NCBI RefSeq assembly: GCF_037126435.1
Contig: NZ_CP147020.1
Coordinates: 1,715,293 to 1,779,292 of the forward strand
Source of the DNA: Bernardetia sp. ABR2-2B
Lineage (GTDB): Bacteria > Bacteroidota > Bacteroidia > Cytophagales > Bernardetiaceae
Length of the DNA stretch: 64,000 bases
Reading direction: 5' to 3'
The position numbers and the translations under genes were made by a program. The notes below the pieces were generated by a model. The model was not told the DNA's origin. It ran no database searches and saw only the letters and a program-made list of their open reading frames with translations. Positions 4,295 through 59,203 of this stretch are shown here, in pieces (the stretch's first letter is position 1; each line of letters begins with the position of its first letter).

Positions 4295-4331
4295 TTTCAC
4301 ATTTATTTAGCTTATATTTTGTGATATTGTA

Positions 4332-6556: not shown

Positions 6557-6592
6557 AGCCTTCAAAAACTAGATGTTTTTGAAGGCTTTTTA
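6557..6592. terminator. hairpin terminator downstream of the M23 peptidase gene
   Basis: aagccttcaaaaa CTAGATG tttttgaaggctt stem with a T-run. Confidence 0.55.
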
Positions 6593-6611
6593 TATTTTTC
6601 TTTATTACTGT

Positions 6612-21141: not shown

Positions 21142-24100
21142 ATGAGTTCTACCATCTGTTTTTTTTATAATTTTTTCTCTATTCGTAATTTCTTTGCGTC
21201 ATTTTTTTGTGCGTTTCTATTCTTTTTTGTTCTTGTGGATAAACTACAAGCACAAGCTATTCCGACAACAGAACATTATAGTATCTATGATTATCATGCC
21301 CACCCTCAAAACTGGTCTGTTGTTCAAGATGATATTGGTAGAATCTATGTAGCAAATACAAAAGGAATTTTGGAATATGATGGAAATAGCTGGACACTTA
21401 TCGAATTACCTAATTTGGCAAGTGTAACAGCACTCACAAAAGGAAAAGATGGGAAAATTTATGTCGGAGCGACATCAGAAATAGGCTATTTAGATTCAGA
21501 TTCAATAGGAAACAAAACTTACGTTTCTCTATTAGATAAAATGAATGAACAAGACAAAAAATTCTCTACAATTTGGAAAGCATTTTCTACTTCAGATGGT
21601 ATTGTATTTCAGTCTTTTGAAAAGGTTTTTTGGTATAAAAACGAAAAAATTAAAGTTATTGCTCCTAATTCGGCTTTTCATTTAGCTTTTCAGATTAAAG
21701 GAAAAGACAATGAAAATAGTGAATTATTTGTTAGAGAATGGGGAAAGGGATTGCATAGCCTTACTTCAAAAGGCTTAGAGTTTATTGCAGGAAGTGAAAT
21801 TTTTGCAGACGAAAAAATCTATTCTATTCTCCCTAAAAAAACAGCTCATTATTTTGTTGTAACCGAGCAGAAAGGAATTTATACTTATAATAAAAACACA
21901 GGTTTTTTACCTTTTCCTACTTCGGCAGATTCTCTTTTAAAATCAAGTCAAGTATATTGTGGAACTTCACTTGCTGATGGAAGCTATGCGCTAGGTACAC
22001 GCCTAGCAGGAATTTTGATTTTTGATTCCAATTTTCAGTTTCTTTATAAAATATCTTCAAAAAATGGTTTGAAAGATGATAGAGTAGCCTATCTATATCA
22101 AGATTCTAATAAGCAACTTTGGGCTGCCCTTAGCAACGGAATCGCTTATATTGATGTTGCTTCGTCCTTCCGTTATTTTGATAAAAATACTGACATAAAC
22201 AGAAATATTTTGAGTATTTCTCCTCCTTTCAATCAAAGTATTTATATCGGAACCGTACAAGGAATATTCAAATCAAATGCTGACAAAGCAGAAACAATAA
22301 AAGAATTTCAACTCTTGCCCTATTCAGAACGAGAAACTTGGAAGCTTGATGTATATAAAGATATACTTTTGGGAGCGCAAAACCCTGGTATTGCGTGGAT
22401 AGGAGAACGAGGTGTAGAAGAGCTTCTAGCTGCCAGTAACCCATTTATTCAAGATTTTGCATTAGTGAAAAACGATACTTCTCACTTAATTGCAGCTTCT
22501 ATTGAAGGTCTTTTACTTTTGAGGTGGCAAAACAATCATTGGATTTTTGTAGATAAAATTAAGGGTTTTTCAGGTGCAGCTACCAAAATCATTCAAGATG
22601 AGAACAACGACTTTTGGGTAAGTGATTATAACAGAGGAATTTTTAGACTTCAATTAGGTACAGACTTACTAACTGTTACACATTCTGAATTTTTTGGAGA
22701 GCTTAATGGACTTCCCAAAAATCAAGGAAATCATGTCTTTCAGCTTGATGAAAAAGCTATTTTTGGTACTTTAGAAGGAATTTATGGGTTTAGTGAAAAT
22801 ACATTTTCGCCACATCCTGTTTTTGAAAACTTGATAGAAAAAAGAGCCATTACCATTTTTGAGAAAGATAAAAAAGATAATCTGTGGATAGTAACTCAAA
22901 ATGAACAAAATAAATTTAGTAGTTCTCAAACGCTACTTGTTCAACTCAAAAAAACAGATTCTACCTACCAAAGATATGATGCTCCTTTTTATAAAATAAA
23001 GCAAATCATTCAGGCAGTTCGTCCAGTTGATGAAAATCTAGTTTTGATTGGTACAAATGAAGGACTAATTTCGTACAACCCTCTTAATACGATTGCAGAC
23101 AAACAGCCATTTTCTGCTTTTATTACGCAGATAGAGCATAGTGGTTCAAGAGATTCTTTACTTTTCTCTACTGATTTTATTCTTAATCAAGAAAATAATA
23201 AACAGAATAATTTGTCAGAAACTAAACCTGTAAAATTACCTTATGCACTTAATTCGCTACGTTTTAGTTTTGGAAGTTCATTTTTTGAGCAACGTAGTGA
23301 AGTCTATTATCAAACTAAATTAGAACCCTTAGACAAAGGCTTATCTAATTGGACAAACGATAACAACTGGTCATCTTGGACAACCGAAACACAAGATAAG
23401 TTTACCAATCTTTCAGAGGGAGACTATATGTTTCGTCTTAGAGCAAAAAATCTATATGGTGTAGAAAGCAAAGAAGTTACTTTCAGATTTACTATCAAAA
23501 CGCCTTGGTTTAGACACCCTTTATTTTATCTTTTTATTGTTCTTGTTCTTGGGTTTTTAGTTCAATATGGAGTAAAAATTTACACCAAACGACTAAAATC
23601 TGAAAAAAACCTTTTAGAAAATACTGTTAGAGAGCGTACTGAAGATATGCGTCAAGCGTATTTTAATACTCGTGTTTTGAGTAAACTAGGACAGGAAATT
23701 ACCTCTACTCGTTCGATTGATGAAATTACAGATATGATTTATCAACATGTCAGTAAATTAATGGATGCTTCTGTTTTTGCTATCGGTATTCATAATGAAG
23801 AAAATGAAACGCTAGAATTTCCTGTGGCAATAGAAAATGGCGAAAAACTACCTTTTCACTTCGAAAATTTGGATGATACAGGGCGTTTTGCTGTATGGTG
23901 TTTTTTAAATGAACAAGACCTTTTCATAAATGATAGTGAAGTGGATTATGAACTTTATATGTCGCATCGTCCAAAAACAACTGTTGGAAAAGCTGCTCCT
24001 TCACTTATTTATCTTCCTCTCAAAATCAAGAAAAAAGTAATTGGAGTAATTACAGTACAGAGTTTTGAGAAAAATGCCTATAATGATTACCATCTCAATT

Positions 24101-24957
24101 TATTACGTAGTTTGGCTGTTTATACAGGAATTGCGATTGAAAATGCAAACTCTTATCATCAAATTAATGAACAAAAAGATATTATTCAAGATAAAAACAA
24201 GCAGCTTATTTCAAGTATCAATTATGCAAAACGTATTCAGAATGCTATTCTTCCACCTTTAGAAACAATTCAAGAAGAGTTTGAAGATACTTTTGTTTTA
24301 TTTTTGCCTCGTGATATTGTAAGTGGGGATTTTTATTATTTCAATAAAATAAATGGAAAATCTATCATTAGTGCTATCGATTGTACAGGTCATGGCGTTC
24401 CAGGGGCATTTATGTCTATGATAGGTTATGAGCTTTTGAATGAAATTATTTTAGCTAAACATATTACAAACCCTGCCAAAATATTAGATGCTCTGCATGA
24501 AGGAATTTCTAAGGGATTACGTCAAGAACAAACCTTTACACAAGATGGAATGGACATGACACTTTGTACGTGGGACGAAAAAACAAAGGTTTTGGAAGTG
24601 GCTGCTGCAAGAAATCAATTATATCTGTTCAATTCGGAAGATAAAGAGAGATTTTTTGAATTAGGAGCTGATAGGCAATCCATAGGAGGAAAAATGAATG
24701 AGGATTTTGAGTTCAAATCACATCAAGTTCAGATTCAAAAAAACGATACTATTTATTTACTTACCGATGGTTATCAAGACCAATTTGGAGGGCTGCAAGA
24801 TAGAAAATACTTACGTCGTCGTTTGAGAGAGTTTTTACAAAACAACCAGCATCTTTCTATGACTCAACAGCGCAGAGCCTTACAGAGAGAACTCACAGAA
24901 TGGAAAGGTAATGCTGAACAAGTAGATGATATTTTGATTATCGGCATTCGATTTTAA
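21142..24957 (+). CDS. sensor protein: periplasmic two-component-regulator propeller + Y_Y_Y domain, TM helix, GAF, C-terminal PP2C/SpoIIE-type Ser/Thr phosphatase
   Basis: Signal peptide, long beta-propeller repeat region, Y_Y_Y-like segment (GDYMFRLRAKNLYG), a TM helix, a GAF domain, then PP2C motifs (SGDFYYF, DCTGHGVPGAFMS, LLTDGYQDQFGG). Confidence 0.8.
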   Translation: MSSTICFFYNFFSIRNFFASFFCAFLFFFVLVDKLQAQAIPTTEHYSIYDYHAHPQNWSVVQDDIGRIYVANTKGILEYDGNSWTLIELPNLASVTALTKGKDGKIYVGATSEIGYLDSDSIGNKTYVSLLDKMNEQDKKFSTIWKAFSTSDGIVFQSFEKVFWYKNEKIKVIAPNSAFHLAFQIKGKDNENSELFVREWGKGLHSLTSKGLEFIAGSEIFADEKIYSILPKKTAHYFVVTEQKGIYTYNKNTGFLPFPTSADSLLKSSQVYCGTSLADGSYALGTRLAGILIFDSNFQFLYKISSKNGLKDDRVAYLYQDSNKQLWAALSNGIAYIDVASSFRYFDKNTDINRNILSISPPFNQSIYIGTVQGIFKSNADKAETIKEFQLLPYSERETWKLDVYKDILLGAQNPGIAWIGERGVEELLAASNPFIQDFALVKNDTSHLIAASIEGLLLLRWQNNHWIFVDKIKGFSGAATKIIQDENNDFWVSDYNRGIFRLQLGTDLLTVTHSEFFGELNGLPKNQGNHVFQLDEKAIFGTLEGIYGFSENTFSPHPVFENLIEKRAITIFEKDKKDNLWIVTQNEQNKFSSSQTLLVQLKKTDSTYQRYDAPFYKIKQIIQAVRPVDENLVLIGTNEGLISYNPLNTIADKQPFSAFITQIEHSGSRDSLLFSTDFILNQENNKQNNLSETKPVKLPYALNSLRFSFGSSFFEQRSEVYYQTKLEPLDKGLSNWTNDNNWSSWTTETQDKFTNLSEGDYMFRLRAKNLYGVESKEVTFRFTIKTPWFRHPLFYLFIVLVLGFLVQYGVKIYTKRLKSEKNLLENTVRERTEDMRQAYFNTRVLSKLGQEITSTRSIDEITDMIYQHVSKLMDASVFAIGIHNEENETLEFPVAIENGEKLPFHFENLDDTGRFAVWCFLNEQDLFINDSEVDYELYMSHRPKTTVGKAAPSLIYLPLKIKKKVIGVITVQSFEKNAYNDYHLNLLRSLAVYTGIAIENANSYHQINEQKDIIQDKNKQLISSINYAKRIQNAILPPLETIQEEFEDTFVLFLPRDIVSGDFYYFNKINGKSIISAIDCTGHGVPGAFMSMIGYELLNEIILAKHITNPAKILDALHEGISKGLRQEQTFTQDGMDMTLCTWDEKTKVLEVAAARNQLYLFNSEDKERFFELGADRQSIGGKMNEDFEFKSHQVQIQKNDTIYLLTDGYQDQFGGLQDRKYLRRRLREFLQNNQHLSMTQQRRALQRELTEWKGNAEQVDDILIIGIRF

Positions 24958-25053: not shown

Positions 25054-25764
25054 TTATGAAATAGAACTCTCATCAAGCTCAACTAATTTGAAACCTGTGC
25101 CATGAACATTCAAAATTTTGAGATGAGCATCTGCACGAAGATATTTACGTAATTTTGTTACATAAACATCCATACTACGAGCATTGAAGTAATTATCATC
25201 GCCCCAAATTTCGTTTAAAGCTTTTGAACGCTCTAACGTTTGATTTTTATTTTCACAAAGCATACGTAAAAGTTCAGTTTCTTTCGAAGTGAGTTTTGTA
25301 TCCTCTCCTTCATTATTTTTCAAAAGCTGTGCGTCATAATCAAAAAGAAGCTCACCAATATTGAATTTACGAAGTGCAGGAGAGCTATCTGTAACGATAG
25401 TACGACGCAAAATTGCCTGTACACGAAGAAGAAGCTCTTCCATCGAAAAAGGCTTTGTCATATAATCGTCTGCTCCAATTTGAAGTCCTTCAATACGGTC
25501 TTCCTTCATTCCTTTTGCTGTCAAGAATACAATAGGAGTATGCTTATCTATTTTTCTGATTTCTTTAGCTGCCGTAAAGCCATCTATATTTGGCATCATA
25601 ACATCTAAGATACAAATATCAAAAACGTTATCTTCTTTAAAAAAGGCATCTAATGCTTCTTTTCCATCTCTGGCAAGTGTAACACCAAATCCTTTGATTT
25701 CTAAATACTCACTTAAAATTTGACCTAAATTGTGGTCGTCTTCGGCTAACAATATATTGTGCAT
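25054..25764 (-). CDS. OmpR-family response regulator transcription factor (orphan)
   Basis: Receiver domain (LLAEDD ... ILDVMMPNIDG ... TAKG) plus a C-terminal winged helix (ELLLRVQAILRR ... VYVTKLRKYL). Confidence 0.85.
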   Translation of the reverse strand: MHNILLAEDDHNLGQILSEYLEIKGFGVTLARDGKEALDAFFKEDNVFDICILDVMMPNIDGFTAAKEIRKIDKHTPIVFLTAKGMKEDRIEGLQIGADDYMTKPFSMEELLLRVQAILRRTIVTDSSPALRKFNIGELLFDYDAQLLKNNEGEDTKLTSKETELLRMLCENKNQTLERSKALNEIWGDDNYFNARSMDVYVTKLRKYLRADAHLKILNVHGTGFKLVELDESSIS

Positions 25765-48196: not shown

Positions 48197-49033
48197 ATGT
48201 CTGCAAATATGGGCGAAATAGAAATAGCCGAGCTACGCAAACTGACTACTTTCATTAAAGAAAAGTTTGATTATAACTTTAAGGACTATGCCATGTCGTC
48301 TTTTCGAAGACGAATCAAGCGTATGCTTGATTTATACAAGCTTCAAACTGTCGATGAACTGATTCATATTCTCAATACAAAAGAAGGCTTTTTTGAGGAG
48401 TTTGTTTCTGAACTTACTGTAAATGTTACTGAAATGTTTCGTGACCCTACGTTTTGGCGTGTCTTACGTGAGCATATCATTCCTAACATTATGCTCAATC
48501 ACAACAAAATAAGTATTTGGCACGCAGGCTGTTCTTCTGGTGAAGAGATTGTTTCTATGTCTATTGTTTTAGATGAAATGGGTATTTTGGATAAGGCAAA
48601 AATTGTAGCCACAGATATTGACCGTTCTATTATTGCTAGAGCAAAAGAAGGACGTTACCCTCTCAAGCACATGGAAGTAAATCGTAAGAATTATTTGCGT
48701 TATCAAGGTAAATATTCTTTAGAGAAATATTATACAGAGGTAGGTTCGGAAGCTGTAATAAATAAATCTCTTTTAGAAAATGTATCCTATCGCAAACACG
48801 ATTTGGTACAGGGAAGTGTTTTTTCAAAATTTGATTTAGTTTTGTGTAGAAACGTAATGATTTATTTTAATCAAACACTACAAAATCAAGTTTTACACCG
48901 TTTGCACGAAAGTTTGTTCAAATATGGCTACTTAGTTATCGGTTCGAAAGAATCTTTAATTTGGTGTGATATTGCTCACAAATTTATTGTAGTAAATAAC
49001 GAAGAAAAGATTTATAAAAAAATTAAAGATTAA
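48197..49033 (+). CDS. cheR: protein-glutamate O-methyltransferase CheR
   Basis: CheR N-terminal domain (FKDYAMSSFRRRIKRM) plus a SAM-binding domain (ISIWHAGCSSGEE ... VLCRNVMIYF). Confidence 0.9.
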   Translation: MSANMGEIEIAELRKLTTFIKEKFDYNFKDYAMSSFRRRIKRMLDLYKLQTVDELIHILNTKEGFFEEFVSELTVNVTEMFRDPTFWRVLREHIIPNIMLNHNKISIWHAGCSSGEEIVSMSIVLDEMGILDKAKIVATDIDRSIIARAKEGRYPLKHMEVNRKNYLRYQGKYSLEKYYTEVGSEAVINKSLLENVSYRKHDLVQGSVFSKFDLVLCRNVMIYFNQTLQNQVLHRLHESLFKYGYLVIGSKESLIWCDIAHKFIVVNNEEKIYKKIKD

Positions 49034-49138: not shown

Positions 49139-49747
49139 ATGGTAAAAGAAGCACATCTTATAAATAAATACAAGGCAGTCGTAATTGGTGGTTCGGCAGG
49201 AAGTTTTCAACCTATGGTTCAAATTCTTTCTTCTATTCCTCGTGAGTTTCCCTTACCTATATTTCTATGTTTGCATCGGCTCAAACATGTGCGTCATGGT
49301 TTTGTAGAAGCTCTCTCCATAAAAAGCCAAAAAGAAATTATAGAGCCAATGGACAAGGAAAGTATTAAAAAAGGAATTGTATATTTAGCTCCAGCCAACT
49401 ATCACATGGCAGTCGAACTTGGCAACTCTGTTTCACTGAATACCGAAGGTTTATTAAACAATTCTCGTCCAGCAATAGATATAACCTTCGAATCAGCAGC
49501 TTATGTATATCGTGATAAATTAATTGGTATCCTACTTTCAGGTGCAAATAAAGATGGAGCTGTAGGAATGCAGAAAATAAAACACCGTAAAGGACTTACA
49601 ATTATTCAAGATATTGAAGAAAGTATGATTAATGCAATGCCATTAGCTGCAAAAAACATTGTAGATATTGATTACGAGTTGAAGGTAGATGAAATTATAG
49701 GTTTTTTATTAAAATTAAATAAAATCTATCAACAAGAAAAGATATAG
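49139..49747 (+). CDS. cheB: protein-glutamate methylesterase CheB catalytic domain only (no receiver domain)
   Basis: VIGGSAGS active-site Ser context and the His/Asp motifs of the CheB methylesterase fold; 202 aa, no REC domain. Confidence 0.8.
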   Translation: MVKEAHLINKYKAVVIGGSAGSFQPMVQILSSIPREFPLPIFLCLHRLKHVRHGFVEALSIKSQKEIIEPMDKESIKKGIVYLAPANYHMAVELGNSVSLNTEGLLNNSRPAIDITFESAAYVYRDKLIGILLSGANKDGAVGMQKIKHRKGLTIIQDIEESMINAMPLAAKNIVDIDYELKVDEIIGFLLKLNKIYQQEKI

Positions 49748-49793: not shown

Positions 49794-50579
49794 ATGAAAA
49801 AATTCTTTCAAAATAGTATCTGGTTTGGTTTGGCAGTAATATATGCCATAGGTATTCTTGTGTCTGGTCTATTATTGCTTTATTTATACGAAAAACTTTC
49901 AGATGCAGGAATTTTGACTGAAAATGATCATCTTTTAATGGGTTTTATAATCTTTGAATTATTATTAGGACTTGTTTTAATGTTTGGTTTCTATGTTAAG
50001 TGGCAACGCAAACAAGCGCAAGGAGATATTATTTATGTAGATAGATATGTGAATGAAAATACACAGGAATCAGAAATTAAAACAAAAGTTTTAGATTGGA
50101 ATAATCAAAGAGCTATTTTATCCGAAATAATCAAAAACCCTAATAAATCACAGTCTTCAAACGAGATTCTCAAACATATTTGTAATGAGTTAGAAGCTGT
50201 TTCTGGGGCGTTTTATGTCTCTCATATAGATACAGATGTAAGAAGAATAGAACTTATTGCTACCTATGCTTTTGCTCTGCCTGATAGTCAATCTCTATTT
50301 TACGAATTTGGAGAAGGGATTGCAGGGCAAGTAGCCAAAGTAGGTCAAAAAACATATCTTAGAGACATTCCAGAAGGATACCTGAATATTCTTTCAGGCT
50401 TAGGAGAAAGTCAGCCTTCTGTTCTTTTGGCTGTTCCGATACAACAAGATAATACTCAAAAAGATATAGAAGAAAACCCAGTAAAAGGAGTTATTGAATT
50501 AGCTTCCTTTAAAGAATTTACTGATTCAGAGAAAGAATATATAGATAAAGTAGCTGATTTAGTAGCCAAACATCTATAA
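49794..50579 (+). CDS. membrane-anchored GAF domain protein
   Basis: Two N-terminal TM helices, then a GAF domain clearly homologous to the GAF of the downstream sensor (ATYAFALPDS..FGEGIAGQVA vs ATYAYHKRKY..FAEGLVGQAA). Confidence 0.7.
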   Translation: MKKFFQNSIWFGLAVIYAIGILVSGLLLLYLYEKLSDAGILTENDHLLMGFIIFELLLGLVLMFGFYVKWQRKQAQGDIIYVDRYVNENTQESEIKTKVLDWNNQRAILSEIIKNPNKSQSSNEILKHICNELEAVSGAFYVSHIDTDVRRIELIATYAFALPDSQSLFYEFGEGIAGQVAKVGQKTYLRDIPEGYLNILSGLGESQPSVLLAVPIQQDNTQKDIEENPVKGVIELASFKEFTDSEKEYIDKVADLVAKHL

Positions 50580-50647: not shown

Positions 50648-53600
50648 ATGCTCAATCGATTCAGCATTCGTACCAAAATCACAATACGACTTATAGTGGT
50701 AGTGCTTATGGCTGCATTTGTGCTAAGTTGGGTTTCTTACGATCGTGGAAAAGAAGCCGTCGAACAGCGTTATTGGCAAAACCTTAAAGTAATTAATAAA
50801 CTTAAAAGTAAAGAAATTCAAGGAGTATTTTCTCAGATTAGTTCGCATGTTAAATTACTTCAAGAATATTCTTCTGTACTTCAATCCCTTCGCAGTGTAA
50901 GTACAATTAGTGAGAGTAAATATACAGATACATTACAAAATCAGCTTCGCAATAAATTAAATGAATCATTACTTCCCTTTAAAGAAACCTATGACTATCC
51001 AAATCTAGTGCTTGTCAATAAAGACGGAAGGATAATTTATAAAACTAATTCAACAGCTGATTATCTTATTTTTGGTAGAATACACGACCGTTATCAAGAG
51101 CTTCTGACACACGCTAATGATGGAATTTATTTTAATGAACCAAGAATAGCAAAAGAGCTTTCAGGAAACCCTAGCCGTATGGAAGCGATTGCTCCTATCT
51201 ACGACCCACAACAAAATTACTTAAAGATAGGCTATATCATTGTCGAACTAGATATGGAAGTTATCTATAATGTTGTTGAAGATAAAACAGGACTAGGAGA
51301 AACAGGTGAGATTGTTTTGGGAAGACAAAAAAGTGCTACTACCATTACTATTTTAAATGAATTAAAAACTCAAGGTCCAAATACTCCTAAAATAATGGGA
51401 GATGGAAAAGCAGAAGCATTGGAAAAAGCATTAAAAGAAAAAACAGAAGGCTATGAGTTTTCAATAGACTATAAAGGCGACGAAACACTTGCTACTTGGA
51501 ATTATATTGAACCTGTCGGTTGGGGAATGGTTACACAAGTAAACAAAAGTGCCGTAGAAAGTGATTTGAATGGGCTTGTCATTGCATTTATCCTAACAGG
51601 TGTAGTGATTATCGTTGTTGCTGGTGGACTTTCTTTTATATTCTCTACTCTTCTTACTCGTCCTATCGAACGCCTACAAGTTGTTTTAGGAATTGTAGCA
51701 AAAGGAGAACTACCAAAAGAAATAAAAAAAGAAACCAATGATGAAATTGGACAAATGACAGAGGCTGTCAATAATTTAGTACAAGCTCTCAAACGAACAG
51801 CTGACTTTGCCTATCAGATTGGAAAGGGAAATTATAAAGCCTCTTTCAAACCTATGGGCAATAATGACACCTTGGGTAATGCTTTGATTACGATGCGAGA
51901 TAGTATTCAAGATGCAGATAGTAAAGACAAACAAAGAAACTGGATTGTATCAGGTGTAGCAGAAGTAGGACAGATTTTACGTGAATATCAAACTATAGAG
52001 CTTCTTTCAGAAAAAATCATTGCTTTTATCACAGAAAAAATAAACGCTGTTCAAGGCAGTTTTTATATTGTAGAAGAAGATGAAATTACACAAGAAAGCA
52101 CCATTGAAATAAGTGCAACCTATGCTTATCATAAAAGAAAATATCTCAAAAAATCATTTCGTTTTGCAGAGGGATTAGTAGGACAAGCAGCTATTGAGCA
52201 AGATATTATTCTTCGCACCGAAATTCCTGATAATTATATGACCATTAGTTCAGGACTTTTAGGAGAACAGAAGCCAAAAGCTTTACTTATCGTACCTCTT
52301 ATTACAGATGAAAAAGTATTTGGAGTAATGGAATTTGCAGGGTTTTCAAGATTTACTGATACAGAGGTAAATTTTGTTCGTGAAATTAGTATTATTATTG
52401 CCCGAACTATCTTCAATATAAAGGTAAATGACCGTACTGTTTCTCTTCTTCAAGAATCACAGCAAATGAGTGAAGAGCTTCAATTACAACAAGAAGTCTT
52501 GCGCCAAAATGCAGAAGAAATGGAATCTACACAAGAGGAACTCCGTAAATCTAATGCACGACTAGAAGAGCAAGTCTTGGAAGTAAATCGTACTCAAAAA
52601 CGTATGCAAGTCCTGCTAGAAAATGCCTCAGAAGTAATTACTATTTATGAGAAGAATGGAAAAGTTCGCTACATAAGTCCATCTATTGAATCTATTTTGG
52701 GCTACGAACAATCTGAACTCATCGGAACAAATGATGTAGATAATGTTCAACAAGCAAGTAAAGAAGCCTTTAGGCAACTTTTTGAAAACCTTTTAGAACA
52801 TCCAGACGAAAATATTACTATTCAATATGAATACCGTAAAAAAAATGGAGATGCTGTTTGGTTAGAAGCTACAGGAACAAATCGTTTGAGCGACCCTGCT
52901 ATTAGAGGTATTGTTATTAACTCTAGAGATATTACAGAGCGAAGACGTGCCGAACAAGAATCTCGTATGCGTGGACAAATGCAAGCACTTTCGGAAAACT
53001 CACCTGACCTTATTATGCGTCTGAACCCAGACGGAAAGATTTTTTATGTCAATCCAACCATCAAAAATTTAACTGGTTTAGAGCCTTCAACACTGACAAA
53101 CAAGATGATGAAAGGTTCAGAATTGCCTACTGCTATTGTCAAACGTATTGAAGAAATTACAGAAAAAGTAAATAGAACAGGAAATAAAGTGCTAAGGGAA
53201 CTAGAAATTGATTCGGTTGCAGGTCAGCGTGTCATGCAAACAACAGCGATTCCTGAGTACAACGACCAAGCTTATTTAGAATCAATACTGGTAGTTTCTC
53301 ACGATATAACAGAGAGAAAAAGAACTGAATTTGAGGTTAGAGAAACAAACCGTAAAATTTCAGAAAGTATTAACTATGCAAGACGTATTCAAGGTGCAAT
53401 TTTACCAGAAAGTCGTCATTTACAAAGCATTTTTCCAGATTCCTTTATTTTTTATAAACCTAGAGATATTGTTAGTGGAGATTTTCCTTGGTATGTACAA
53501 AAGGGCGATGATGTTTATATTGCAGCCGTTGATTGTACAGGACATGGAGTACCTGGGGCTTTGATTTCTCTTATTGGATACTTTATTTTAAATGAAATTT

Positions 53601-54115
53601 TAAGTTCTAGTCAGACTATTCTTTCTCCTGCCCAAATACTAGATAGACTAAATAAAGGAGTTGCACAAACACTAAGACAGGATACAGAAGGAAATACCAA
53701 AGACGGTATGGACATTGCACTTTGTCGTATTAATAGAAAACAAAATAAGGTAGAATTTGCTGGAGCACATCGTCCTTTATATGTCTTACCAAAAGAAGGT
53801 AACTTAATACAAATAAAAGGAGACCGAAAACCAATTGGTGGTGGAGCTATTTACAGTAAATCTGATGACTTTAGTAATCATAATTATAAAATTTCTAAAG
53901 GAGATTCACTTTATATTTTCTCTGATGGTTTGCCTGACCAGTTTGGAGGAGAAGAGGATAAAAAATTCTCTGCTAAACAGATACGTGAAATTTTAGTAGA
54001 AAATAGAAATCAAAACATGGAAGAAATGCATATTACTTTCGAAAATCGTTTTGAGCAATGGATGGGAAATAGTAAACAAATTGATGATATTTTGATGATT
54101 GGCATTAAGTTTTGA
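50648..54115 (+). CDS. multidomain sensor PP2C phosphatase (Cache-like periplasmic domain, TM, HAMP, GAF, coiled coil, 2 PAS, PP2C/SpoIIE; SiaA-like)
   Basis: TM helices flank a roughly 270-aa periplasmic region; HAMP (LTRPIERLQVVLG ... DEIGQMTEAVNNLV); GAF; PAS motifs; C-terminal PP2C motifs SGDFPWY, DCTGHGVPGALIS, FSDGLPDQFGG. Confidence 0.85.
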   Translation: MLNRFSIRTKITIRLIVVVLMAAFVLSWVSYDRGKEAVEQRYWQNLKVINKLKSKEIQGVFSQISSHVKLLQEYSSVLQSLRSVSTISESKYTDTLQNQLRNKLNESLLPFKETYDYPNLVLVNKDGRIIYKTNSTADYLIFGRIHDRYQELLTHANDGIYFNEPRIAKELSGNPSRMEAIAPIYDPQQNYLKIGYIIVELDMEVIYNVVEDKTGLGETGEIVLGRQKSATTITILNELKTQGPNTPKIMGDGKAEALEKALKEKTEGYEFSIDYKGDETLATWNYIEPVGWGMVTQVNKSAVESDLNGLVIAFILTGVVIIVVAGGLSFIFSTLLTRPIERLQVVLGIVAKGELPKEIKKETNDEIGQMTEAVNNLVQALKRTADFAYQIGKGNYKASFKPMGNNDTLGNALITMRDSIQDADSKDKQRNWIVSGVAEVGQILREYQTIELLSEKIIAFITEKINAVQGSFYIVEEDEITQESTIEISATYAYHKRKYLKKSFRFAEGLVGQAAIEQDIILRTEIPDNYMTISSGLLGEQKPKALLIVPLITDEKVFGVMEFAGFSRFTDTEVNFVREISIIIARTIFNIKVNDRTVSLLQESQQMSEELQLQQEVLRQNAEEMESTQEELRKSNARLEEQVLEVNRTQKRMQVLLENASEVITIYEKNGKVRYISPSIESILGYEQSELIGTNDVDNVQQASKEAFRQLFENLLEHPDENITIQYEYRKKNGDAVWLEATGTNRLSDPAIRGIVINSRDITERRRAEQESRMRGQMQALSENSPDLIMRLNPDGKIFYVNPTIKNLTGLEPSTLTNKMMKGSELPTAIVKRIEEITEKVNRTGNKVLRELEIDSVAGQRVMQTTAIPEYNDQAYLESILVVSHDITERKRTEFEVRETNRKISESINYARRIQGAILPESRHLQSIFPDSFIFYKPRDIVSGDFPWYVQKGDDVYIAAVDCTGHGVPGALISLIGYFILNEILSSSQTILSPAQILDRLNKGVAQTLRQDTEGNTKDGMDIALCRINRKQNKVEFAGAHRPLYVLPKEGNLIQIKGDRKPIGGGAIYSKSDDFSNHNYKISKGDSLYIFSDGLPDQFGGEEDKKFSAKQIREILVENRNQNMEEMHITFENRFEQWMGNSKQIDDILMIGIKF

Positions 54116-54496: not shown

Positions 54497-55078
54497 ATGA
54501 AATATATTTATGACTTACACAAGGTTATGCTCAAACAAAGCTTGCTTTTAGTATATGAAGGCGAGTTTAGTCAAGAAATAACTAAGGCTGTTTTGGCAAT
54601 GGCAGAACGTAATATGGATTCCTTTGGTGAGCAACGCAAAGTCAAGACAAAGGTCTTTAATGTCATGGTAGAAGATTTACAAAACATCTTTAAACACTCT
54701 CAAAGCTATCAAGAAGAGATTTATGGAAAGAATAATGCTATTTTTTCTTTAGCCAAAACTGACGACCATTATTTCGTTCTTTCTGGGAATCCACTTTTTA
54801 CAAATGAAGTAGAAGCTTTAAAGAATCGTCTTGAAGAAATTAATTTGTTAGATGCTGCTGGTCTAAAAGAAGAATACAAACGCATTATCAAAAGTAAGAA
54901 AGGCGTTGGAAAAGATGGATTATCTGATAAAGGAGGCGCAGGTCTTGGGTTCATTGATATGGCTCGTAAATCAGGTAATAAAATTCGTTTTGACTTTGAG
55001 AAGATCAATGATGAACTTTCATTTTTCTCACTTCGCATGACAATCAATCGTAATCCTGATGCAGAAAAAAAAGGTTAA
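54497..55078 (+). CDS. SiaB-like GHKL-fold Ser/Thr protein kinase (anti-sigma-factor-like)
   Basis: About 190 aa with the G2-box-like GGAGLGFIDMARKSG of HATPase_c/RsbW-type kinases, directly upstream of a DUF1987 gene. Confidence 0.55.
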   Translation: MKYIYDLHKVMLKQSLLLVYEGEFSQEITKAVLAMAERNMDSFGEQRKVKTKVFNVMVEDLQNIFKHSQSYQEEIYGKNNAIFSLAKTDDHYFVLSGNPLFTNEVEALKNRLEEINLLDAAGLKEEYKRIIKSKKGVGKDGLSDKGGAGLGFIDMARKSGNKIRFDFEKINDELSFFSLRMTINRNPDAEKKG

Positions 55079-55185: not shown

Positions 55186-55548
55186 ATGGACGTAATCAAC
55201 TTAGAACCAACAGAAGACACACCAAAAGTAATCTTAGACAAAGATCGTCAGGCATTCGAAATATCTGGTCGTTCTCTTCCTGAAGATGCAGCCGAATTTT
55301 ATCAACCTATCTTAGATTGGTTAGACGAATACGAAAACCAAGTAAATCCAGACACGAAATTTATGTTTAAGTTGGAGTATTTCAATACTGCATCATCAAA
55401 ACTTATCTTGGATATTCTTTCTAAATTAGAAGAAATTGAAGGTGCATCTGTAATTTGGTATTTTCATGAAGATGATGAAGATATGGAGGAAGCAGGAGAA
55501 GAATTTTCTGACCTTGTAGATATTCCTTTTGACTTCAAAACCTATTAA
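55186..55548 (+). CDS. DUF1987 (SiaC-like) phospho-switch protein
   Basis: 120 aa, EYFNTASSK motif with Thr at position 68, acidic C-terminus. Confidence 0.65.
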   Translation: MDVINLEPTEDTPKVILDKDRQAFEISGRSLPEDAAEFYQPILDWLDEYENQVNPDTKFMFKLEYFNTASSKLILDILSKLEEIEGASVIWYFHEDDEDMEEAGEEFSDLVDIPFDFKTY

Positions 55549-55897: not shown

Positions 55898-58800
55898 ATG
55901 AGTGAAGAAATACTAAAAGCCCTAACCCAATTATTTGCAGTTGTTTCTAAACAAGACGGTGGCGTATCTGAAGCCGAGCGTAATTTTGTTATTCGATTCT
56001 TCGAACAAGAGTTGGATAGAAAAAGACTTGCTGAATATGTTGCACTCTATGACCAATATGCAGAATCAGGAGTAGAAGGAGAAGATAAAAAAGGAGCTGA
56101 AGCAACAGCAGAAAATCCAGAAGATATAGTTATAATAACAGAAGGCAAAACACCTGAAGAAATAGAACAGCAAGAAAAAGATAAAGCTAGAGCCATACGA
56201 AGAGCTAAACGAAAAGCAAAAAAAGCAGCAGAAGGAGGAGATAGTGGAAACATTAAGTTAAAAGATAGTATGCGTACGCTTAAAGTATGTAGAAATATCA
56301 ATAAAACACTTGCTCAAAAGCAAAAAGTTATTGTTACATTTAAGATTTTAGAGATGCTTGCCGTTGATAGAAACTTTAGTAGCCATAGATTAGAAATTAT
56401 ACAAACAGCTTCTGAAATCTTTAGAATTCCAAAAGAAGAATATGAATTGATGGAAAACTTTGTTATCTCAACAGATTCTCCTCAAATGTTCGATTCCCCA
56501 GACCTTTTAGTATTTGATGAAGAAGCTCCTCCAGTAGAGAGCAGAAAAAAATTCATTGATTCAGGACTTTTAGATGGCGAAATTGTTTTTATTCGTCTGA
56601 AAAGTGTTGAATTATATTTTACAAAATATAATGGTAATGATGAGATTTTCCTAAATGGTCAGCTTGTCAAAAAGGGAACAATCGTTCTTTTCTCAAATGG
56701 TAGTGTTTTCAAAACACCGAAAGGTGCGCCTCTTTATTATAGTGATTTAGTTACTCGTTATAATGATACAGCTCAACAAAATCCTATCTCATTTAATGTC
56801 ATTAATTTAGATTTCCGTTTTCCAGACGGAACTATCGGACTTCGCAACGTAAATATTGCAGAAGGACCAGGAAAACTGCTCAGTATAATGGGAGCAAGTG
56901 GAGCAGGAAAAACTACGCTTCTCAATGTTTTGGCTGGTTTGGAAAATCCTTATAAGGGCGAAGTACGTATAAACGGTTTCAATCTTCATACAGAATCAGA
57001 TATGGTAGAGGGCGTAATTGGTTACGTTTCTCAAGATGATTTACTAATAGAAGAACTCAGTGTTTATCAAAACTTGTATTATAACGCTAAGCTTTGCTTT
57101 AAAAATCTTAGTGAAGAAGAGCTTGATGCTCGTGTGATGGAGGTTTTGGCAAGTTTAGGATTAGATAGAATAAAAGACATTACAGTGGGTAGTGTATTGA
57201 ATAAAATGATAAGTGGAGGGCAACGTAAGCGTCTCAATATTGCTTTGGAGCTTATTCGTGAACCTGCCGTTATGTTCGTAGATGAGCCTACATCAGGTCT
57301 TTCTTCAAGAGATTCAGAAAATGTAATTGACCTTCTAAAAGAACTTTCACTCAAAGGAAAACTTATTTTCGTAGTAATTCACCAGCCTTCTTCAGACATT
57401 TATAAGATGTTTGATAAAATGATTTTGTTAGATACAGGAGGCTATCCAATTTATTATGGAAATCCTGTTGAAGCGATTGCTTATTTCAAACGTGCTACAA
57501 ATCAAGTAGGAAGTGATAACGGACAATGTCAAACATGTGGAACAGTTACACCAGAACTTCTCTTTAATATAATTGAAGCAAGAGTAGTAAATGAATATGG
57601 AGAATATACAGGTGTAAGAAAAATAGCTCCACCAGAATGGAACGATTTGTACAAACAAACACATTCTATTTCACCAGTAGAAACTGTAAACGAGCCACCA
57701 CCAAACTCACTCAGTATTCCTTCAAAGATAAAACAGGCTGCTATTTTTATGACTAGAGATTTTCTCTCTAAGATTAGTAATACGCAGTATATGATGATAA
57801 ATCTTTTAGAAGCTCCTTTACTTGCACTTTTACTCTCTGTAATCGTCCGATTCAAAAATGCAAAAGATGCAGAAGAATATATATTCCGATATAATGATAA
57901 TGTACCTGCTTATATGCTGATTGCTATTATTGTTGCTCTTTTTATGGGATTAACAGTAAGTGCTGAGGAAATCATTCGGGATAGAAAAATTCAGAGGAGA
58001 GAATCGTTCTTAAATCTAAGTAGGATAAGTTATCTGACTTCGAAGGTAGGTATTTTGTTTACTCTTTCAGCTATTCAAACGCTCACTTTTGCGCTCATTG
58101 GTAATACTATTTTAGAGATTCAAGGGATGTATTGGCAATATTGGCTTGTTTTATTTAGTATTTCTTGTTTTGCCAATGCCTTAGGACTAAATATTTCAGC
58201 TTCCTTCAATTCGGCTGTAACTGTTTATATTCTTATTCCATTATTACTTATTCCTCAAATGATTTTGAGTGGTGCAATTTTTAGATTTGACCAACTTAAT
58301 AATTCAATTGTAGAAAAGGGACGTATTCCACTTGTTGCTGACTTGATGGCTTCTCGTTGGGCGTATGAAGCGTTGGCTGTTGAGCAGTTTAAGGATAATC
58401 CTTTTGAAAGGCAGATTTTTGATGTAGAATTTGAGATTAGTCAGTATCAACATAAAGCCAATTTCTGGATTCCAAAGATGCAAGAAATTTTAGACCGTTC
58501 AGCAAATTATGCAGAGAGCGCACAAAATGAGAATGCTGATTCTGTTATGGTATTGCTTCAAGATGATATTGCATTGCTTAAACACGAATGGGAAAGTGAA
58601 AAAGTAAACGAAATACTTGATCGTTTGAAGATTCAGGCAGAAGACTTAGAACTTTCTTCAGAAGAGCAAAAACTATTAAATATAGATTTGGAAAAGACAC
58701 TTCAAATTATAGAGTTTGATAGAGAAATGGCTGACAAACTGAAAGCTGTCTTGGAAATGATACGCTCAAAGGTATTGACTCCCAAGTTTGTGATGGCTGG

Positions 58801-59203
58801 TGAAAGAAAAGATAGCATCATAAATGCAATGGAACAAAACCCTGCAAACAAACTTTCAGTAGTTGAACGAAAAAATAAATACACCAATGAGTATTTAGAA
58901 TCACAGGTGAAAAATGAAATGATAAAAGATAAATATGTAGAAGGAAATGGATTTTTGGTACAACAAACAGACCCTATTTTTGCTGTTCGTAATCCAAATA
59001 ACCTTTCTAGCCCATTAGACTATCGTACTCACTTCTTTGCTCCTGAAAAGCAATTTTTAGGTAATTATTTTGATACAATGTGGTTTAATGTATGTGTAAT
59101 GTGGGTAATGACAATTTTACTACTTATTACTCTTTATTTTGAATTACTCAAAAGATTAATTGATGTACTTGGAGGTATTAACTTTAGGAAAAAGAAAAAA
59201 TAA
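55898..59203 (+). CDS. ABCG-type half transporter (ATPase then ABC-2 permease) with N-terminal TerB-like domains and a possible FHA-like beta-sandwich
   Basis: N-terminal TerB-like DGGVSEAERNFVIRFF; Walker A GASGAGKTT, signature ISGGQRKRLNIALEL, Walker B MFVDEPTSGLSS; six C-terminal TM helices. Segment IFLNGQLVKKGTIVLFSNGSVF is FHA-like (uncertain). Confidence 0.8.
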   Translation: MSEEILKALTQLFAVVSKQDGGVSEAERNFVIRFFEQELDRKRLAEYVALYDQYAESGVEGEDKKGAEATAENPEDIVIITEGKTPEEIEQQEKDKARAIRRAKRKAKKAAEGGDSGNIKLKDSMRTLKVCRNINKTLAQKQKVIVTFKILEMLAVDRNFSSHRLEIIQTASEIFRIPKEEYELMENFVISTDSPQMFDSPDLLVFDEEAPPVESRKKFIDSGLLDGEIVFIRLKSVELYFTKYNGNDEIFLNGQLVKKGTIVLFSNGSVFKTPKGAPLYYSDLVTRYNDTAQQNPISFNVINLDFRFPDGTIGLRNVNIAEGPGKLLSIMGASGAGKTTLLNVLAGLENPYKGEVRINGFNLHTESDMVEGVIGYVSQDDLLIEELSVYQNLYYNAKLCFKNLSEEELDARVMEVLASLGLDRIKDITVGSVLNKMISGGQRKRLNIALELIREPAVMFVDEPTSGLSSRDSENVIDLLKELSLKGKLIFVVIHQPSSDIYKMFDKMILLDTGGYPIYYGNPVEAIAYFKRATNQVGSDNGQCQTCGTVTPELLFNIIEARVVNEYGEYTGVRKIAPPEWNDLYKQTHSISPVETVNEPPPNSLSIPSKIKQAAIFMTRDFLSKISNTQYMMINLLEAPLLALLLSVIVRFKNAKDAEEYIFRYNDNVPAYMLIAIIVALFMGLTVSAEEIIRDRKIQRRESFLNLSRISYLTSKVGILFTLSAIQTLTFALIGNTILEIQGMYWQYWLVLFSISCFANALGLNISASFNSAVTVYILIPLLLIPQMILSGAIFRFDQLNNSIVEKGRIPLVADLMASRWAYEALAVEQFKDNPFERQIFDVEFEISQYQHKANFWIPKMQEILDRSANYAESAQNENADSVMVLLQDDIALLKHEWESEKVNEILDRLKIQAEDLELSSEEQKLLNIDLEKTLQIIEFDREMADKLKAVLEMIRSKVLTPKFVMAGERKDSIINAMEQNPANKLSVVERKNKYTNEYLESQVKNEMIKDKYVEGNGFLVQQTDPIFAVRNPNNLSSPLDYRTHFFAPEKQFLGNYFDTMWFNVCVMWVMTILLLITLYFELLKRLIDVLGGINFRKKKK

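What the first reader, a model, noticed from the sequence alone, without database searches (positions are those of the whole stretch)
52440..52620. Candidate methyl-accepting coiled coil inside the PP2C sensor
Between the GAF and the first PAS domain, the sensor carries a Glu/Gln-rich heptad segment (QESQQMSEELQLQQEVLRQNAEEMESTQEELRKSNARLEEQVLEVN). It contains AEEMEST and QEEL pairs that resemble the EExxA(S/T) methylation consensus of chemoreceptors. No MCP signalling domain exists in the locus, so this is the most plausible CheR/CheB target.
Basis: inference. Interest (0 to 1): 0.6.

Follow-up and report, generated by a model that had tools for sequence, protein, structure and literature searches.

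The report
Methylatable signalling helix in phosphatase sensor
A gliding bacterium with no chemotaxis receptors in this region keeps a CheR/CheB methylation enzyme pair next to a membrane sensor-phosphatase, and that sensor has a Glu-Glu coiled coil homologous to the only non-chemoreceptor helix known to be methylated by a CheR-type enzyme (RsbK of Bacillus cereus).

Summary
Window 52439-52618 encodes aa 598-657 of a 1155-aa sensor: dCache-HAMP-GAF-coiled coil-PAS-PAS-PP2C. The segment has a strict 7-residue hydrophobic repeat with Glu-Glu pairs just before the core Leu/Met.

The pairs are conserved in 101 orthologues: E610 97%, E623/E624 about 91%, E630/E631 96% and 92%. Position 631 alternates E/Q, as chemoreceptor methylation sites do.

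The operon cheR-cheB-GAF protein-sensor-siaB-siaC-ABC is conserved across Cytophagales.

GAF plus helix aligns without gaps in the helix to B. cereus RsbK (32% identity, E 2e-31). RsbK's "S-helix" is methylated by the CheR-type enzyme RsbM, and the window's CheR is 43% identical to an RsbM orthologue.

In 32 of 34 metagenomic loci, and 6 of 6 plasmid loci, this CheR subfamily sits beside a GAF + EE-heptad sensor. It is never beside an MCP or CheW.

What differs here is the output. There is no histidine kinase. A fused PP2C phosphatase feeds a SiaB/SiaC partner switch, and a receiver-less CheB is present.

Verdict: a new variant of a known kind. Methylation itself is untested.

The parts
48197..49033 (+). 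cheR: RsbM-like protein-glutamate O-methyltransferase (278 aa)
   Evidence: Pfam CheR_N + CheR. 43% identical (E 3e-78) to the RsbM orthologue of a Bacillus sigB cluster. Only 30% identical to the CheR of a canonical Che cluster in Persicobacter, another Cytophagales genus.
49139..49747 (+). cheB: methylesterase catalytic domain only, no receiver domain (202 aa)
   Evidence: Pfam CheB_methylest covers aa 14-188 and no Response_reg domain is found. It is conserved next to cheR in 69 orthologous loci.
49794..50579 (+). small membrane protein with a C-terminal GAF domain (261 aa), a conserved operon member of unknown role
   Evidence: Pfam GAF_2/GAF. It is present but weakly conserved (28-48% outside the Bernardetia group) between cheB and the sensor in related loci. 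It ends with the GAF domain and has no EE helix.
50648..54115 (+). sensor phosphatase (1155 aa): periplasmic dCache-like domain, HAMP, GAF, EE-heptad helix, PAS, PAS, PP2C
   Evidence: Pfam scan. dCache_1 is listed for the orthologues. The PP2C part matches the SiaA model. 100% identical to a Bernardetia sp. ABR2-2B protein.
52004..52411 (+). GAF domain (aa 453-588) whose last helix runs into the EE-heptad helix
   Evidence: Pfam. GAF and helix align together to RsbK aa 254-490, 32% identity, E 2e-31. The AlphaFold model has a continuous helix 571-612.
52439..52618 (+). candidate methyl-accepting signalling helix (aa 598-657), RsbK S-helix type
   Evidence: Strict 7-residue hydrophobic repeat and no indels in 101 orthologues. 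Aligns without gaps in the helix to the RsbK S-helix.
52472..52477 (+). Glu pair E609-E610, equivalent to RsbK E431-E432
   Evidence: E610 is Glu in 97% of orthologues. E609 is variable (N/E/K). Register.
52514..52519 (+). Glu pair E623-E624 (AEEMEST; EEMEAT in most orthologues), equivalent to RsbK E445-E446
   Evidence: Glu in 91% and 90% of orthologues. About 9% carry I/V/M/R instead while keeping cheR and cheB. Register.
52535..52540 (+). Glu pair E630-E631 (TQEEL), equivalent to RsbK E452-E453; the best-conserved pair, with E/Q alternation at 631
   Evidence: E630 96%. E631 92% Glu plus 7% Gln.
52601..53323 (+). two PAS domains (aa 652-762 and 783-892) between the helix and the phosphatase
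   Evidence: Pfam PAS, PAS_4 and PAS_9.
53504..54109 (+). PP2C (SpoIIE-type) phosphatase output domain (aa 953-1154)
   Evidence: Pfam SpoIIE E 3.6e-20. NCBIfam SiaA model E 3e-61 over aa 891-1155, below the equivalog cut-off.
54497..55078 (+). SiaB-family protein kinase (193 aa)
   Evidence: NCBIfam SiaB_fam_kinase, 172 bits against a cut-off of 85. Pfam DUF6272.
55186..55548 (+). SiaC-family regulatory phosphoprotein (120 aa), the presumed substrate of the PP2C domain
   Evidence: Pfam SiaC, 134 bits against a cut-off of 24.5. 67-99% identical in nearly all orthologous loci.
55898..59203 (+). ABC transporter fusion (1101 aa) always found downstream of siaC; possible effector of the switch (tentative)
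   Evidence: Pfam ABC_tran + ABC2_membrane, with a weak sub-threshold TerB match at the N-terminus. Present downstream of siaC in essentially all loci long enough to show it.

Best explanation
The segment is an RsbK-type methylatable signalling helix. It is a parallel dimeric coiled coil that continues the last helix of the GAF domain and leads into the PAS-PAS-PP2C output.

The proposed mechanism has four steps, and all of them are inferred.

1. The co-transcribed CheR uses S-adenosylmethionine to methyl-esterify the second Glu of one or more exposed Glu-Glu pairs. Candidates are E631, E624 and E610, in that order of likelihood.
2. The receiver-less CheB removes the methyl groups. In orthologues that encode Gln at 631 it would also deamidate that residue.
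3. Neutralising these charges alters the packing or rotation of a deliberately marginal coiled coil, whose 'a' positions are polar (Q, A, Q, N). This biases the signal passing from dCache/HAMP/GAF to the PP2C domain.
4. The PP2C domain dephosphorylates SiaC, opposed by the kinase SiaB. Methylation level would therefore set the gain or memory of a partner-switch output rather than of a CheA kinase.

What is shown: the architecture, the conservation, homology to RsbK and RsbM, and the cross-phylum linkage of the genes.

What is inferred: that methylation happens, which residues are modified, the direction of the effect, and SiaC as the substrate.
For: (1) GAF plus helix aligns to RsbK aa 254-490 at 32% identity, E 2e-31, without gaps in the helix. 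RsbK pairs E431/432, E445/446 and E452/453 fall on window pairs E609/610, E623/624 and E630/631. RsbK is methylated on its S-helix by RsbM, shown in vitro with 14C-SAM (PMC4574943; PMC9912610).

(2) The window's CheR is 43% identical (E 3e-78) to RsbM of a sigB cluster whose RsbK carries the published numbering D827/M829.

(3) The operon cheR-cheB-GAF protein-sensor-siaB-siaC is present in 69 related genome loci.

(4) The pairs are conserved at fixed heptad positions, with E/Q alternation at 631.

(5) This CheR subfamily is linked to such helices well beyond this operon. In 6 of 6 sampled plasmid loci (Bacillus, Brucella, Novosphingobium, Caballeronia, Paracoccus, Deinococcus) the sensor beside cheR has GAF followed by EELQxQxEELRxxNEEL. 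Among the 80 metagenomic CheR loci kept, 34 have at least 3.5 kb upstream of cheR. Of these, 32 encode a GAF + helix homologue, 25 of them directly upstream. None of the 80 has an MCP or CheW.

(6) A CheB/CheR fusion protein carries the same EE[LM] heptads in the same polypeptide.

(7) The same pattern marks both methylation helices of a genuine MCP.

(8) Internal contrast: the window's other GAF-PP2C sensor (21142..24957), which has no cheR or cheB beside it, has only a short linker without EE heptads.

(9) The window has no MCP, CheA or CheW.
Against: There is no experimental evidence for this protein.

The AlphaFold monomer model gives pLDDT below 50 for aa 607-660 and does not draw a helix for 613-650. 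The coiled coil therefore rests on sequence periodicity alone.

Three orthologous loci with at least 8 kb upstream (L008, L013, L014) lack cheR and cheB there, yet keep NAEEMEATQEEL unchanged.

About 9% of orthologues replace E623 and/or E624 by I/V/M/R while keeping cheR and cheB.

The residue matching RsbK E439 is Val or Ile in this orthologue group.

Hundreds of related helix-PAS modules exist. Two examined carriers, P0114 and P0116, have no cheR or cheB within 10 kb. Conservation of the motif could therefore be structural.

No sequence similarity to MCP adaptation regions is detectable.
Confidence: 0.7

Rival explanations
1. The helix is only a mechanical signalling helix linking GAF to PAS. 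Its Glu pairs are conserved for solubility, inter-helix electrostatics or marginal stability. The neighbouring CheR/CheB act mainly on other proteins encoded elsewhere in the genome, such as the abundant (helix-PAS)n sensors of Bacteroidota.
For: A profile of the helix finds 305 cluster representatives, many with 3-10 helix-PAS repeats and none of the 144 newly retrieved top representatives fused to CheR or CheB. Two such proteins have no cheR or cheB within 10 kb. Three orthologous loci keep the motif without cheR or cheB nearby. In L080 the sensor's own helix has lost its Glu pairs, while a multi-repeat helix-PAS protein sits directly upstream of cheR.
Against: cheR and cheB are in the sensor's own operon in 69 loci. 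The same gene pair sits beside a single GAF-helix sensor in other phyla. The homologous helix of RsbK is an experimentally shown substrate (PMC4574943). This rival also does not exclude the sensor from being one of several substrates.
Confidence: 0.17
2. CheR/CheB modify a different operon product or a different region: the small GAF membrane protein, SiaC, SiaB, the N-terminal domain of the ABC transporter, or another linker of the sensor.
For: All of these genes are co-conserved with cheR and cheB. None has been tested.
Against: None carries heptad-spaced Glu pairs. The pattern search finds one site in the window, the helix. The GAF membrane protein ends with its GAF domain. In other phyla the only shared neighbour of this CheR subfamily is the GAF-helix sensor, with no SiaB, SiaC or ABC genes.
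Confidence: 0.06
3. The segment is a degenerate chemoreceptor adaptation region, that is, the sensor is a divergent MCP.
For: EEMEAT matches the classical EExxA(S/T) site. Fragments of orthologues give a weak MCPsignal match (E 0.002, 18 bits).
Against: The MCPsignal score is far below the gathering score of 34.6, and the full protein has no MCPsignal hit. There is no hairpin signature. No CheA or CheW is present. A profile search of solved structures returns only generic coiled coils. The helix runs on into a PAS domain instead of folding back as a hairpin.
Confidence: 0.02

Closest known systems
RsbK-RsbM(-RsbY) module of the Bacillus cereus sigma-B pathway (Chen et al. 2012 Environ Microbiol 14:2788, not held in the library; Chen et al. 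2015, PMC4574943; de Been et al. 2010, 2011)
   Same: GAF is followed directly by an EE-heptad helix that aligns without gaps in the helix. The adjacent CheR-type methyltransferase is 43% identical. The pathway ends in a PP2C phosphatase acting on a partner switch. RsbK-like kinases are reported in 10 phyla (PMC4574943).
   Different: RsbK is a CHASE3-HAMP-GAF hybrid histidine kinase with a receiver domain, and its PP2C (RsbY) is a separate response regulator. Here there is no kinase or receiver. The helix leads through two PAS domains into a fused PP2C, the switch is SiaB/SiaC rather than RsbV/RsbW/sigma-B, and a dedicated CheB is present. The B. cereus operon has none, and its chemotaxis CheB is reported not to matter (PMC4574943). 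The residue matching RsbK E439 is Val or Ile here.
Adaptation (methylation) helices of methyl-accepting chemotaxis proteins with CheR/CheB
   Same: Heptad-spaced Glu-Glu or Glu-Gln pairs on a coiled coil, an EExxA(S/T)-like context, E/Q alternation at one site, and a CheR plus CheB enzyme pair. The same pattern search hits both methylation helices of the Persicobacter MCP.
   Different: There is no MCPsignal domain, no hairpin and no CheA or CheW. The geometry is presumably a parallel two-helix coil rather than an antiparallel four-helix bundle. CheB lacks the receiver domain, so there can be no CheA-driven feedback. No sequence homology is detectable.
CheB/CheR fusion sensor kinases (annotated 'two-component system, chemotaxis family, CheB/CheR fusion protein'), e.g. 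Nitrobacter hamburgensis plasmid 3 protein WP_011505251.1
   Same: A run of EE[LM]xxxN heptads (EEYQSVN EELQSSN EELETAK EEMQSVN EELQTVN) directly precedes a PAS-like region in the same polypeptide as CheB and CheR. This is a gene-fusion link between the enzymes and this kind of helix.
   Different: The enzymes are fused rather than separate, no GAF precedes the helix, and the output is a histidine-kinase-like domain. To my knowledge methylation of that helix has not been shown.
SiaABCD partner switch of Pseudomonas aeruginosa
   Same: A membrane HAMP-containing PP2C sensor, a SiaB-family kinase (above the NCBIfam cut-off) and a SiaC phosphoprotein (above the Pfam cut-off), in the same gene order.
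   Different: From my knowledge of the family, SiaA has no GAF, EE helix or PAS domains and no CheR/CheB partners. No SiaD diguanylate cyclase is found here. An ABC transporter fusion follows siaC instead.
Signalling helix (S-helix) of Anantharaman, Balaji and Aravind 2006
   Same: A roughly 40-60-residue coiled-coil connector between sensory and output modules. The C-terminal part reads E-V-[N/E]-R-T, and 18% of orthologues have an exact ERT. ERT as the family's signature is recalled from memory.
   Different: The N-terminal EE-heptad part is not a feature of the general S-helix. I did not test membership with a curated model, because the libraries searched contain none.

Membership tests
RsbK/RsbM-type methylatable sensor module | GAF domain immediately followed by a coiled-coil S-helix with heptad-spaced Glu-Glu pairs | tested here: met
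   BLASTP to RsbK aa 254-490: 32% identity, E 2e-31, no gaps in the helix. Register and pairs shown. Periodicity.
RsbK/RsbM-type methylatable sensor module | Adjacent CheR-type methyltransferase of the RsbM subfamily | tested here: met
   43% identity, E 3e-78 to RsbM. The best plasmid matches are RsbM-like or sensor-kinase-linked CheRs rather than chemotaxis CheRs. 32 of 34 metagenomic relatives sit beside a GAF-helix sensor.
RsbK/RsbM-type methylatable sensor module | Hybrid histidine kinase output (HisKA, HATPase, receiver) | tested here: not met
   Pfam finds PAS, PAS and SpoIIE, with no HisKA, HATPase_c or Response_reg. No kinase-core homologue is found anywhere in the window.
RsbK/RsbM-type methylatable sensor module | Methyl esterification of S-helix glutamates by the partner enzyme | not testable with these tools
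   Shown for RsbK only (PMC4574943, PMC9912610). Here it needs mass spectrometry or labelled-SAM assays.
Methyl-accepting chemotaxis protein | MCP signalling domain with the conserved hairpin | tested here: not met
   The sensor has no MCPsignal hit. Orthologue fragments score 18 bits against a gathering score of 34.6. No hairpin signature in six frames.
Methyl-accepting chemotaxis protein | Works with CheA and CheW | tested here: not met
   No CheA or CheW homologue in the window or in 80 CheR-relative loci, apart from one kinase-like hit.
Methyl-accepting chemotaxis protein | Methylation consensus [EQ][EQ]xx[ASTG][ASTG] at heptad spacing | tested here: met
   EEMES/AT at 623-628, with pairs 7 residues apart at 623/624 and 630/631. 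The upstream half of the extended consensus (small residues at -4 and -3) is not matched (R619, Q620).
SiaABC partner-switch system | SiaB-family kinase and SiaC phosphoprotein encoded next to a PP2C sensor | tested here: met
   NF038262: 172 bits against a cut-off of 85. PF09345: 134 bits against 24.5. The SpoIIE domain matches the SiaA model at E 3e-61.
SiaABC partner-switch system | True SiaA, SiaB and SiaC orthologues (equivalog level) with a SiaD diguanylate cyclase | tested here: not met
   All three equivalog models score below their cut-offs: 208 against 700, 85 against 225, and 74 against 150. No GGDEF protein is encoded in the operon.
LegC2/C7 coiled-coil family (PF28175, NF043058) | Score above the curated threshold | tested here: not met
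   The precomputed PF28175 hits are flagged weak. NF043058 scores 28 bits against a cut-off of 350. This is a coincidental coiled-coil match.

The most novel reading that the evidence does not exclude
The EE-heptad helix may be a general methyl-accepting module of Bacteroidota. Hundreds of sensor families there carry 'QEEELRQNMEELsATQEEM' before each PAS domain, up to ten times per protein, and some have no output domain at all. One or a few receiver-less CheR/CheB pairs could service all of them. Gliding bacteria without CheA, CheW or MCPs would then have methylation-based adaptation or memory, wired into PP2C partner switches and other outputs. This would be a chemoreceptor-independent adaptation system parallel to the Che pathway.
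Probability: 0.25. Interest if true: 0.8.

Novelty: new variant of a known kind. Interest (0 to 1): 0.55.

Why it matters
Many bacteria, including non-flagellated Bacteroidota, encode CheR and CheB without chemoreceptors, and what these enzymes modify is largely unknown. This locus offers a concrete, testable substrate: three Glu pairs on a 60-residue helix.

It would extend the one experimentally supported case, RsbK/RsbM in Bacillus cereus, in three ways. The methylatable helix would control a phosphatase instead of a kinase. The output would be a SiaB/SiaC partner switch. And because a dedicated esterase is present, the modification would be reversible.

If confirmed, reversible glutamate methylation would be a portable tuning device for coiled-coil signal transmission in general, not a speciality of chemotaxis arrays.

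Tried and rejected
1. Word-indexed protein searches with the 81-aa segment and with its 46-sequence profile returned only a few short fragments. The exhaustive profile search was needed.

2. The Pfam family PF28175, precomputed on this segment, looked like a dedicated family. It is T4SS_LegC2C7, flagged weak, and the NCBIfam equivalent scores far below its cut-off. I rejected it as a chance coiled-coil match.

3. A profile search against solved structures gave only AF-10, syntaxins and similar coiled coils, and no MCP.

4. The weak MCPsignal hit is below threshold, so I rejected it.

5. The AlphaFold2 monomer of the full sensor models the domains well (mean pLDDT 81) but not the helix (pLDDT below 50 for 607-660). 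This is inconclusive. A dimer could not be submitted.

6. I tested whether loss of E623/E624 goes with loss of cheR and cheB. It does not. I also tested whether loss of cheR and cheB goes with decay of the motif. It does not in L008, L013 or L014.

7. Literature searches for the motif strings, for CheR/CheB with Sia proteins, and for Bacteroidetes without CheA found nothing relevant. The HmrABCX paper is unrelated. PMC3231935 had nothing on CheR in its main text. Chen et al. 2012 is not held, so the mapped residues E439 and E446 are quoted from memory only.

8. The genome scan for related loci used RQNAEEME as one of its search peptides, so those 80 loci are biased towards keeping the motif. 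Conservation figures are taken instead from the protein-based set.
Full report
WHAT IS THERE. The window matches Bernardetia sp. ABR2-2B (Cytophagales): the sensor is 100% identical to a protein of that genome. The finding lies in ORF 50648..54115 (+), 1155 aa. Pfam gives HAMP 334-382, GAF 453-588, PAS 652-762, PAS 783-892 and SpoIIE/PP2C 953-1154. Orthologues also carry a periplasmic dCache_1 hit.

The reported peptide is aa 602-647, exactly in the gap between GAF and the first PAS. The surrounding + strand genes are:
- cheR (48197..49033)
- a cheB that consists of the catalytic domain only (49139..49747)
- a small membrane GAF protein (49794..50579)
- the sensor
- a SiaB-family kinase (54497..55078)
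- a SiaC phosphoprotein (55186..55548)
- an ABC transporter fusion (55898..59203)

The whole window contains no MCP hairpin signature and no homologue of MCP, CheA, CheW or a histidine-kinase core.

IS THE OBSERVATION MORE THAN CHANCE? I aligned 101 full-length orthologues, 45-92% identical overall. The segment aa 598-660 has no insertion or deletion, and its mean consensus frequency is 0.81, against 0.61 for the whole protein. That puts it in the same range as the other best-conserved cytoplasmic blocks, including parts of the PP2C domain.

Positions 611, 618, 625, 632, 639, 646 and 653 are L/I/V/M in every sequence. The intervening core positions are polar and nearly invariant (Q615, A622, Q629, N636). 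The Glu pairs sit in the two positions before each core Leu or Met.

Conservation of the pairs is as follows:
- E610: 97%
- E623: 91%, E624: 90%
- E630: 96%
- E631: 92% Glu plus 7% Gln

An E/Q swap restricted to the second residue of a pair is what chemoreceptor methylation sites show.

A three-heptad pattern [EQD][EQ][LMIVY]x4 has five hits in 379,342 ORF residues of the window plus 80 related loci. All five lie in helices of this family.

GENOMIC LINKAGE. In 80 genome loci encoding relatives of the sensor, cheR and cheB lie upstream in 69. Three loci with at least 8 kb upstream lack them (L008 Thermoflexibacter ruber, L013, L014). Eight are cut too short to tell. siaB, siaC and the ABC gene follow in essentially all loci that are long enough.

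One caveat applies. One of the six peptides used to find these loci was RQNAEEME, so the motif's constancy is partly built in. For that reason I rely for conservation figures.

WHAT IT IS HOMOLOGOUS TO. A tblastn of the window's CheR against plasmid records gave its best matches in Bacillus and Niallia (40-43%). Next came Rhizobiales, Sphingomonadales, Burkholderiales and Deinococcus (35-37%).

In Brucella (L085), Deinococcus (L086), Novosphingobium (L093), Caballeronia (L094) and Paracoccus (L095), the gene directly upstream of cheR is a sensor kinase. In each, a GAF domain is followed at once by LLxxxQxxxEELQxQxEELRxxNEELEEQ and then by HisKA.

The Bacillus locus (L087) is the sigma-B cluster of the B. 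cereus group: rsbK, rsbM, rsbY (receiver-PP2C), sigB and rsbW. Its RsbK has D827 and M829, as in the published numbering.

The literature establishes that RsbM, a CheR-type methyltransferase, methylates RsbK on a signalling helix between GAF and the kinase domain and thereby represses the pathway. In vitro methylation with 14C-SAM is shown in PMC4574943. The same statement appears in PMC9912610 and PMC12848376, which also recalls the RsbK-CheR genomic association noted by de Been and colleagues. PMC4574943 cites 127 RsbK-like kinases in 10 phyla.

BLASTP of the window sensor against this RsbK aligns aa 429-664 with aa 254-490 (32% identity, E 2e-31), with no gaps in the helix. The pairs correspond as follows:
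- RsbK E431/E432 = window E609/E610
- RsbK E438/E439 = window E616/V617
- RsbK E445/E446 = window E623/E624
- RsbK E452/E453 = window E630/E631

From memory, Chen et al. 2012 mapped the methyl groups to E439 and E446. The paper is not held. In L087 both positions are the second Glu of a pair, 7 residues apart. The window's CheR is 43% identical to this RsbM (E 3e-78).

HOW GENERAL IS THE LINKAGE? I scanned metagenome contigs with an alignment of ten such CheRs. This returned 80 loci, 35-62% identical to the window's CheR. Of the 34 with at least 3.5 kb upstream of cheR:
- 32 encode a homologue of the GAF + helix region
- 25 of those lie directly upstream on the same strand
- all 32 are followed by a HisKA motif and show the EE heptads
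- about three quarters also encode CheB (26 of 34, my count)
- none of the 80 loci has an MCP or CheW homologue

Canonical clusters look different. A Persicobacter plasmid has MCP-CheW-CheA-(PP2C protein)-CheB with receiver-CheR, and that CheR is only 30% identical to the window's. Ralstonia has the classical cheA-cheW-MCP-cheR set. The heptad pattern hits both methylation helices of the Persicobacter MCP.

A CheB/CheR fusion protein of Nitrobacter carries EEYQSVNEELQSSNEELETAKEEMQSVNEELQTVN before a PAS-like region. That is a fusion-type link between the enzymes and such a helix.

Within the window there is a second GAF-PP2C sensor (21142..24957), with no cheR or cheB beside it. It has only a short linker without EE heptads.

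WHAT SPEAKS AGAINST, OR LIMITS, THE CLAIM.
- Nothing here shows methylation of this protein.
- The AlphaFold2 monomer model is confident for the globular domains but has pLDDT below 50 for 607-660, and draws no helix for 613-650. The polar 'a' positions suggest a marginally stable dimeric coil that a monomer model cannot capture, but that is inference.
- About 9% of orthologues carry I/V/M/R at 623/624. Two such loci still have cheR-cheB-GAF protein upstream. E624 therefore cannot be the only site. E631 (with E/Q alternation) and E610 are better conserved.
- Three loci keep the motif without cheR or cheB nearby.
- A profile of the helix finds 305 cluster representatives at E below 0.001. Of the 144 newly retrieved top representatives, 120 match the GAF domain of the operon's small GAF protein, none is fused to CheR or CheB, and many repeat 'QEEELRQNMEELsATQEEM' before each of 3-10 PAS domains.
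- Two such proteins have no cheR or cheB within 10 kb. Either one enzyme pair serves many substrates, or the motif also has a purely structural reason to be conserved.
- In the most divergent locus (L080), the sensor's own helix has lost its Glu pairs, while a 1373-aa HAMP-GAF-(helix-PAS)n protein with good motifs lies directly upstream of cheR. That fits the idea that the enzymes follow the motif rather than the phosphatase.

MECHANISM (INFERRED). A ligand signal from the dCache domain passes through HAMP and GAF into the helix. CheR methylates exposed Glu residues at the positions before the core Leu/Met, and CheB reverses this. Because CheB has no receiver domain and there is no CheA, any feedback must come from conformation-dependent access to the sites.

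Charge neutralisation would shift the helix between signalling states and so set the activity of the PP2C domain towards phospho-SiaC, opposed by SiaB. This assumes the switch works as in the Pseudomonas SiaABC system, which is known from the family and was not tested here. In B. cereus, methylation holds the pathway off. The sign here is unknown.

COMPARISON AND NOVELTY. The module (GAF + EE helix + RsbM-like CheR) is known, and one example has been characterised experimentally. This sensor fails the kinase criterion of the RsbK family. Its output is PAS-PAS-PP2C with a SiaB/SiaC switch, and it has its own esterase. I found no description of this arrangement in the searchable literature. I therefore rate it a new variant of a known kind.

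Noticed in passing
window 55898..59203 (+): An 1101-aa ABC transporter fusion (weak, sub-threshold TerB match at the N-terminus, then ABC_tran and ABC2_membrane) follows siaC in essentially every related locus (49-94% identity). No SiaD-type diguanylate cyclase is present. It may be the effector that SiaC controls in Cytophagales.
   Followed up: partly
window 21142..24957 (+): A second large PP2C sensor (Reg_prop/Y_Y_Y propeller, GAF, SpoIIE; 1271 aa) has only a short GAF-PP2C linker without Glu-Glu heptads. An OmpR-type response regulator is encoded next to it on the opposite strand (25054..25764).
   Followed up: partly
proteins P0134-P0188, e.g. P0141 (1989 aa), P0153, P0160: This is a large family of sensor proteins, most sharing a GAF domain related to that of the operon's small GAF protein. 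'QEEELRQNMEELsATQEEM' precedes each of 3-10 PAS domains, so helix-PAS behaves as a repeated cassette. Their taxonomy was not determined, because the library carries no annotation.
   Followed up: partly
L081 10001-12304 (P0114), L083 5376-8132 (P0116): A dCache-HAMP-GAF-helix-PAS protein of 767 aa has no recognisable output domain, and a GAF-helix-PAS-hemerythrin protein was also found. Neither has cheR or cheB within 10 kb.
   Followed up: partly
L080 1..11000: This is the most divergent relative of the operon. The sensor's helix has lost its Glu pairs and gained an insertion. A multi-repeat helix-PAS protein lies just upstream of cheR. The siaB-siaC pair is duplicated in tandem (8990-9995 and 10054-10999).
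   Followed up: partly
L089 (Persicobacter sp. JZB09 plasmid) 299..8807: A canonical MCP-CheW-CheA cluster in a Cytophagales member includes a 679-aa protein ending in a PP2C domain similar to the window's. CheB with a receiver domain and CheR follow. This is a Che-type pathway with a phosphatase output in the same order of bacteria.
   Followed up: no
L008, L013, L014 (sensor orthologues): Thermoflexibacter ruber and two Cytophagales MAG loci lack cheR, cheB and the small GAF gene in at least 8 kb upstream, but keep the helix sequence unchanged. Whether the genes have moved elsewhere in those genomes could not be checked.
   Followed up: partly
window 52466..52627 (aa 607-660): One of the most conserved stretches of the protein is the only internal region the AlphaFold2 monomer model cannot place (pLDDT 35-49), although every flanking domain is confident.
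   Followed up: partly
L086 (Deinococcus sp. QL22 plasmid) 2..4993: The sensor kinase next to cheR carries at least eight near-identical tandem HAMP-like repeats before its GAF-helix-HisKA part. The gene after cheR is annotated only as an ATP-binding protein.
   Followed up: no
P0164 (4802 aa): This is a giant protein with 25-30 near-identical repeats (DELQKNLEEQQAENEELKKENEQL) that match the helix profile weakly. It is probably an unrelated repetitive coiled-coil protein and a false positive of the profile.
   Followed up: no
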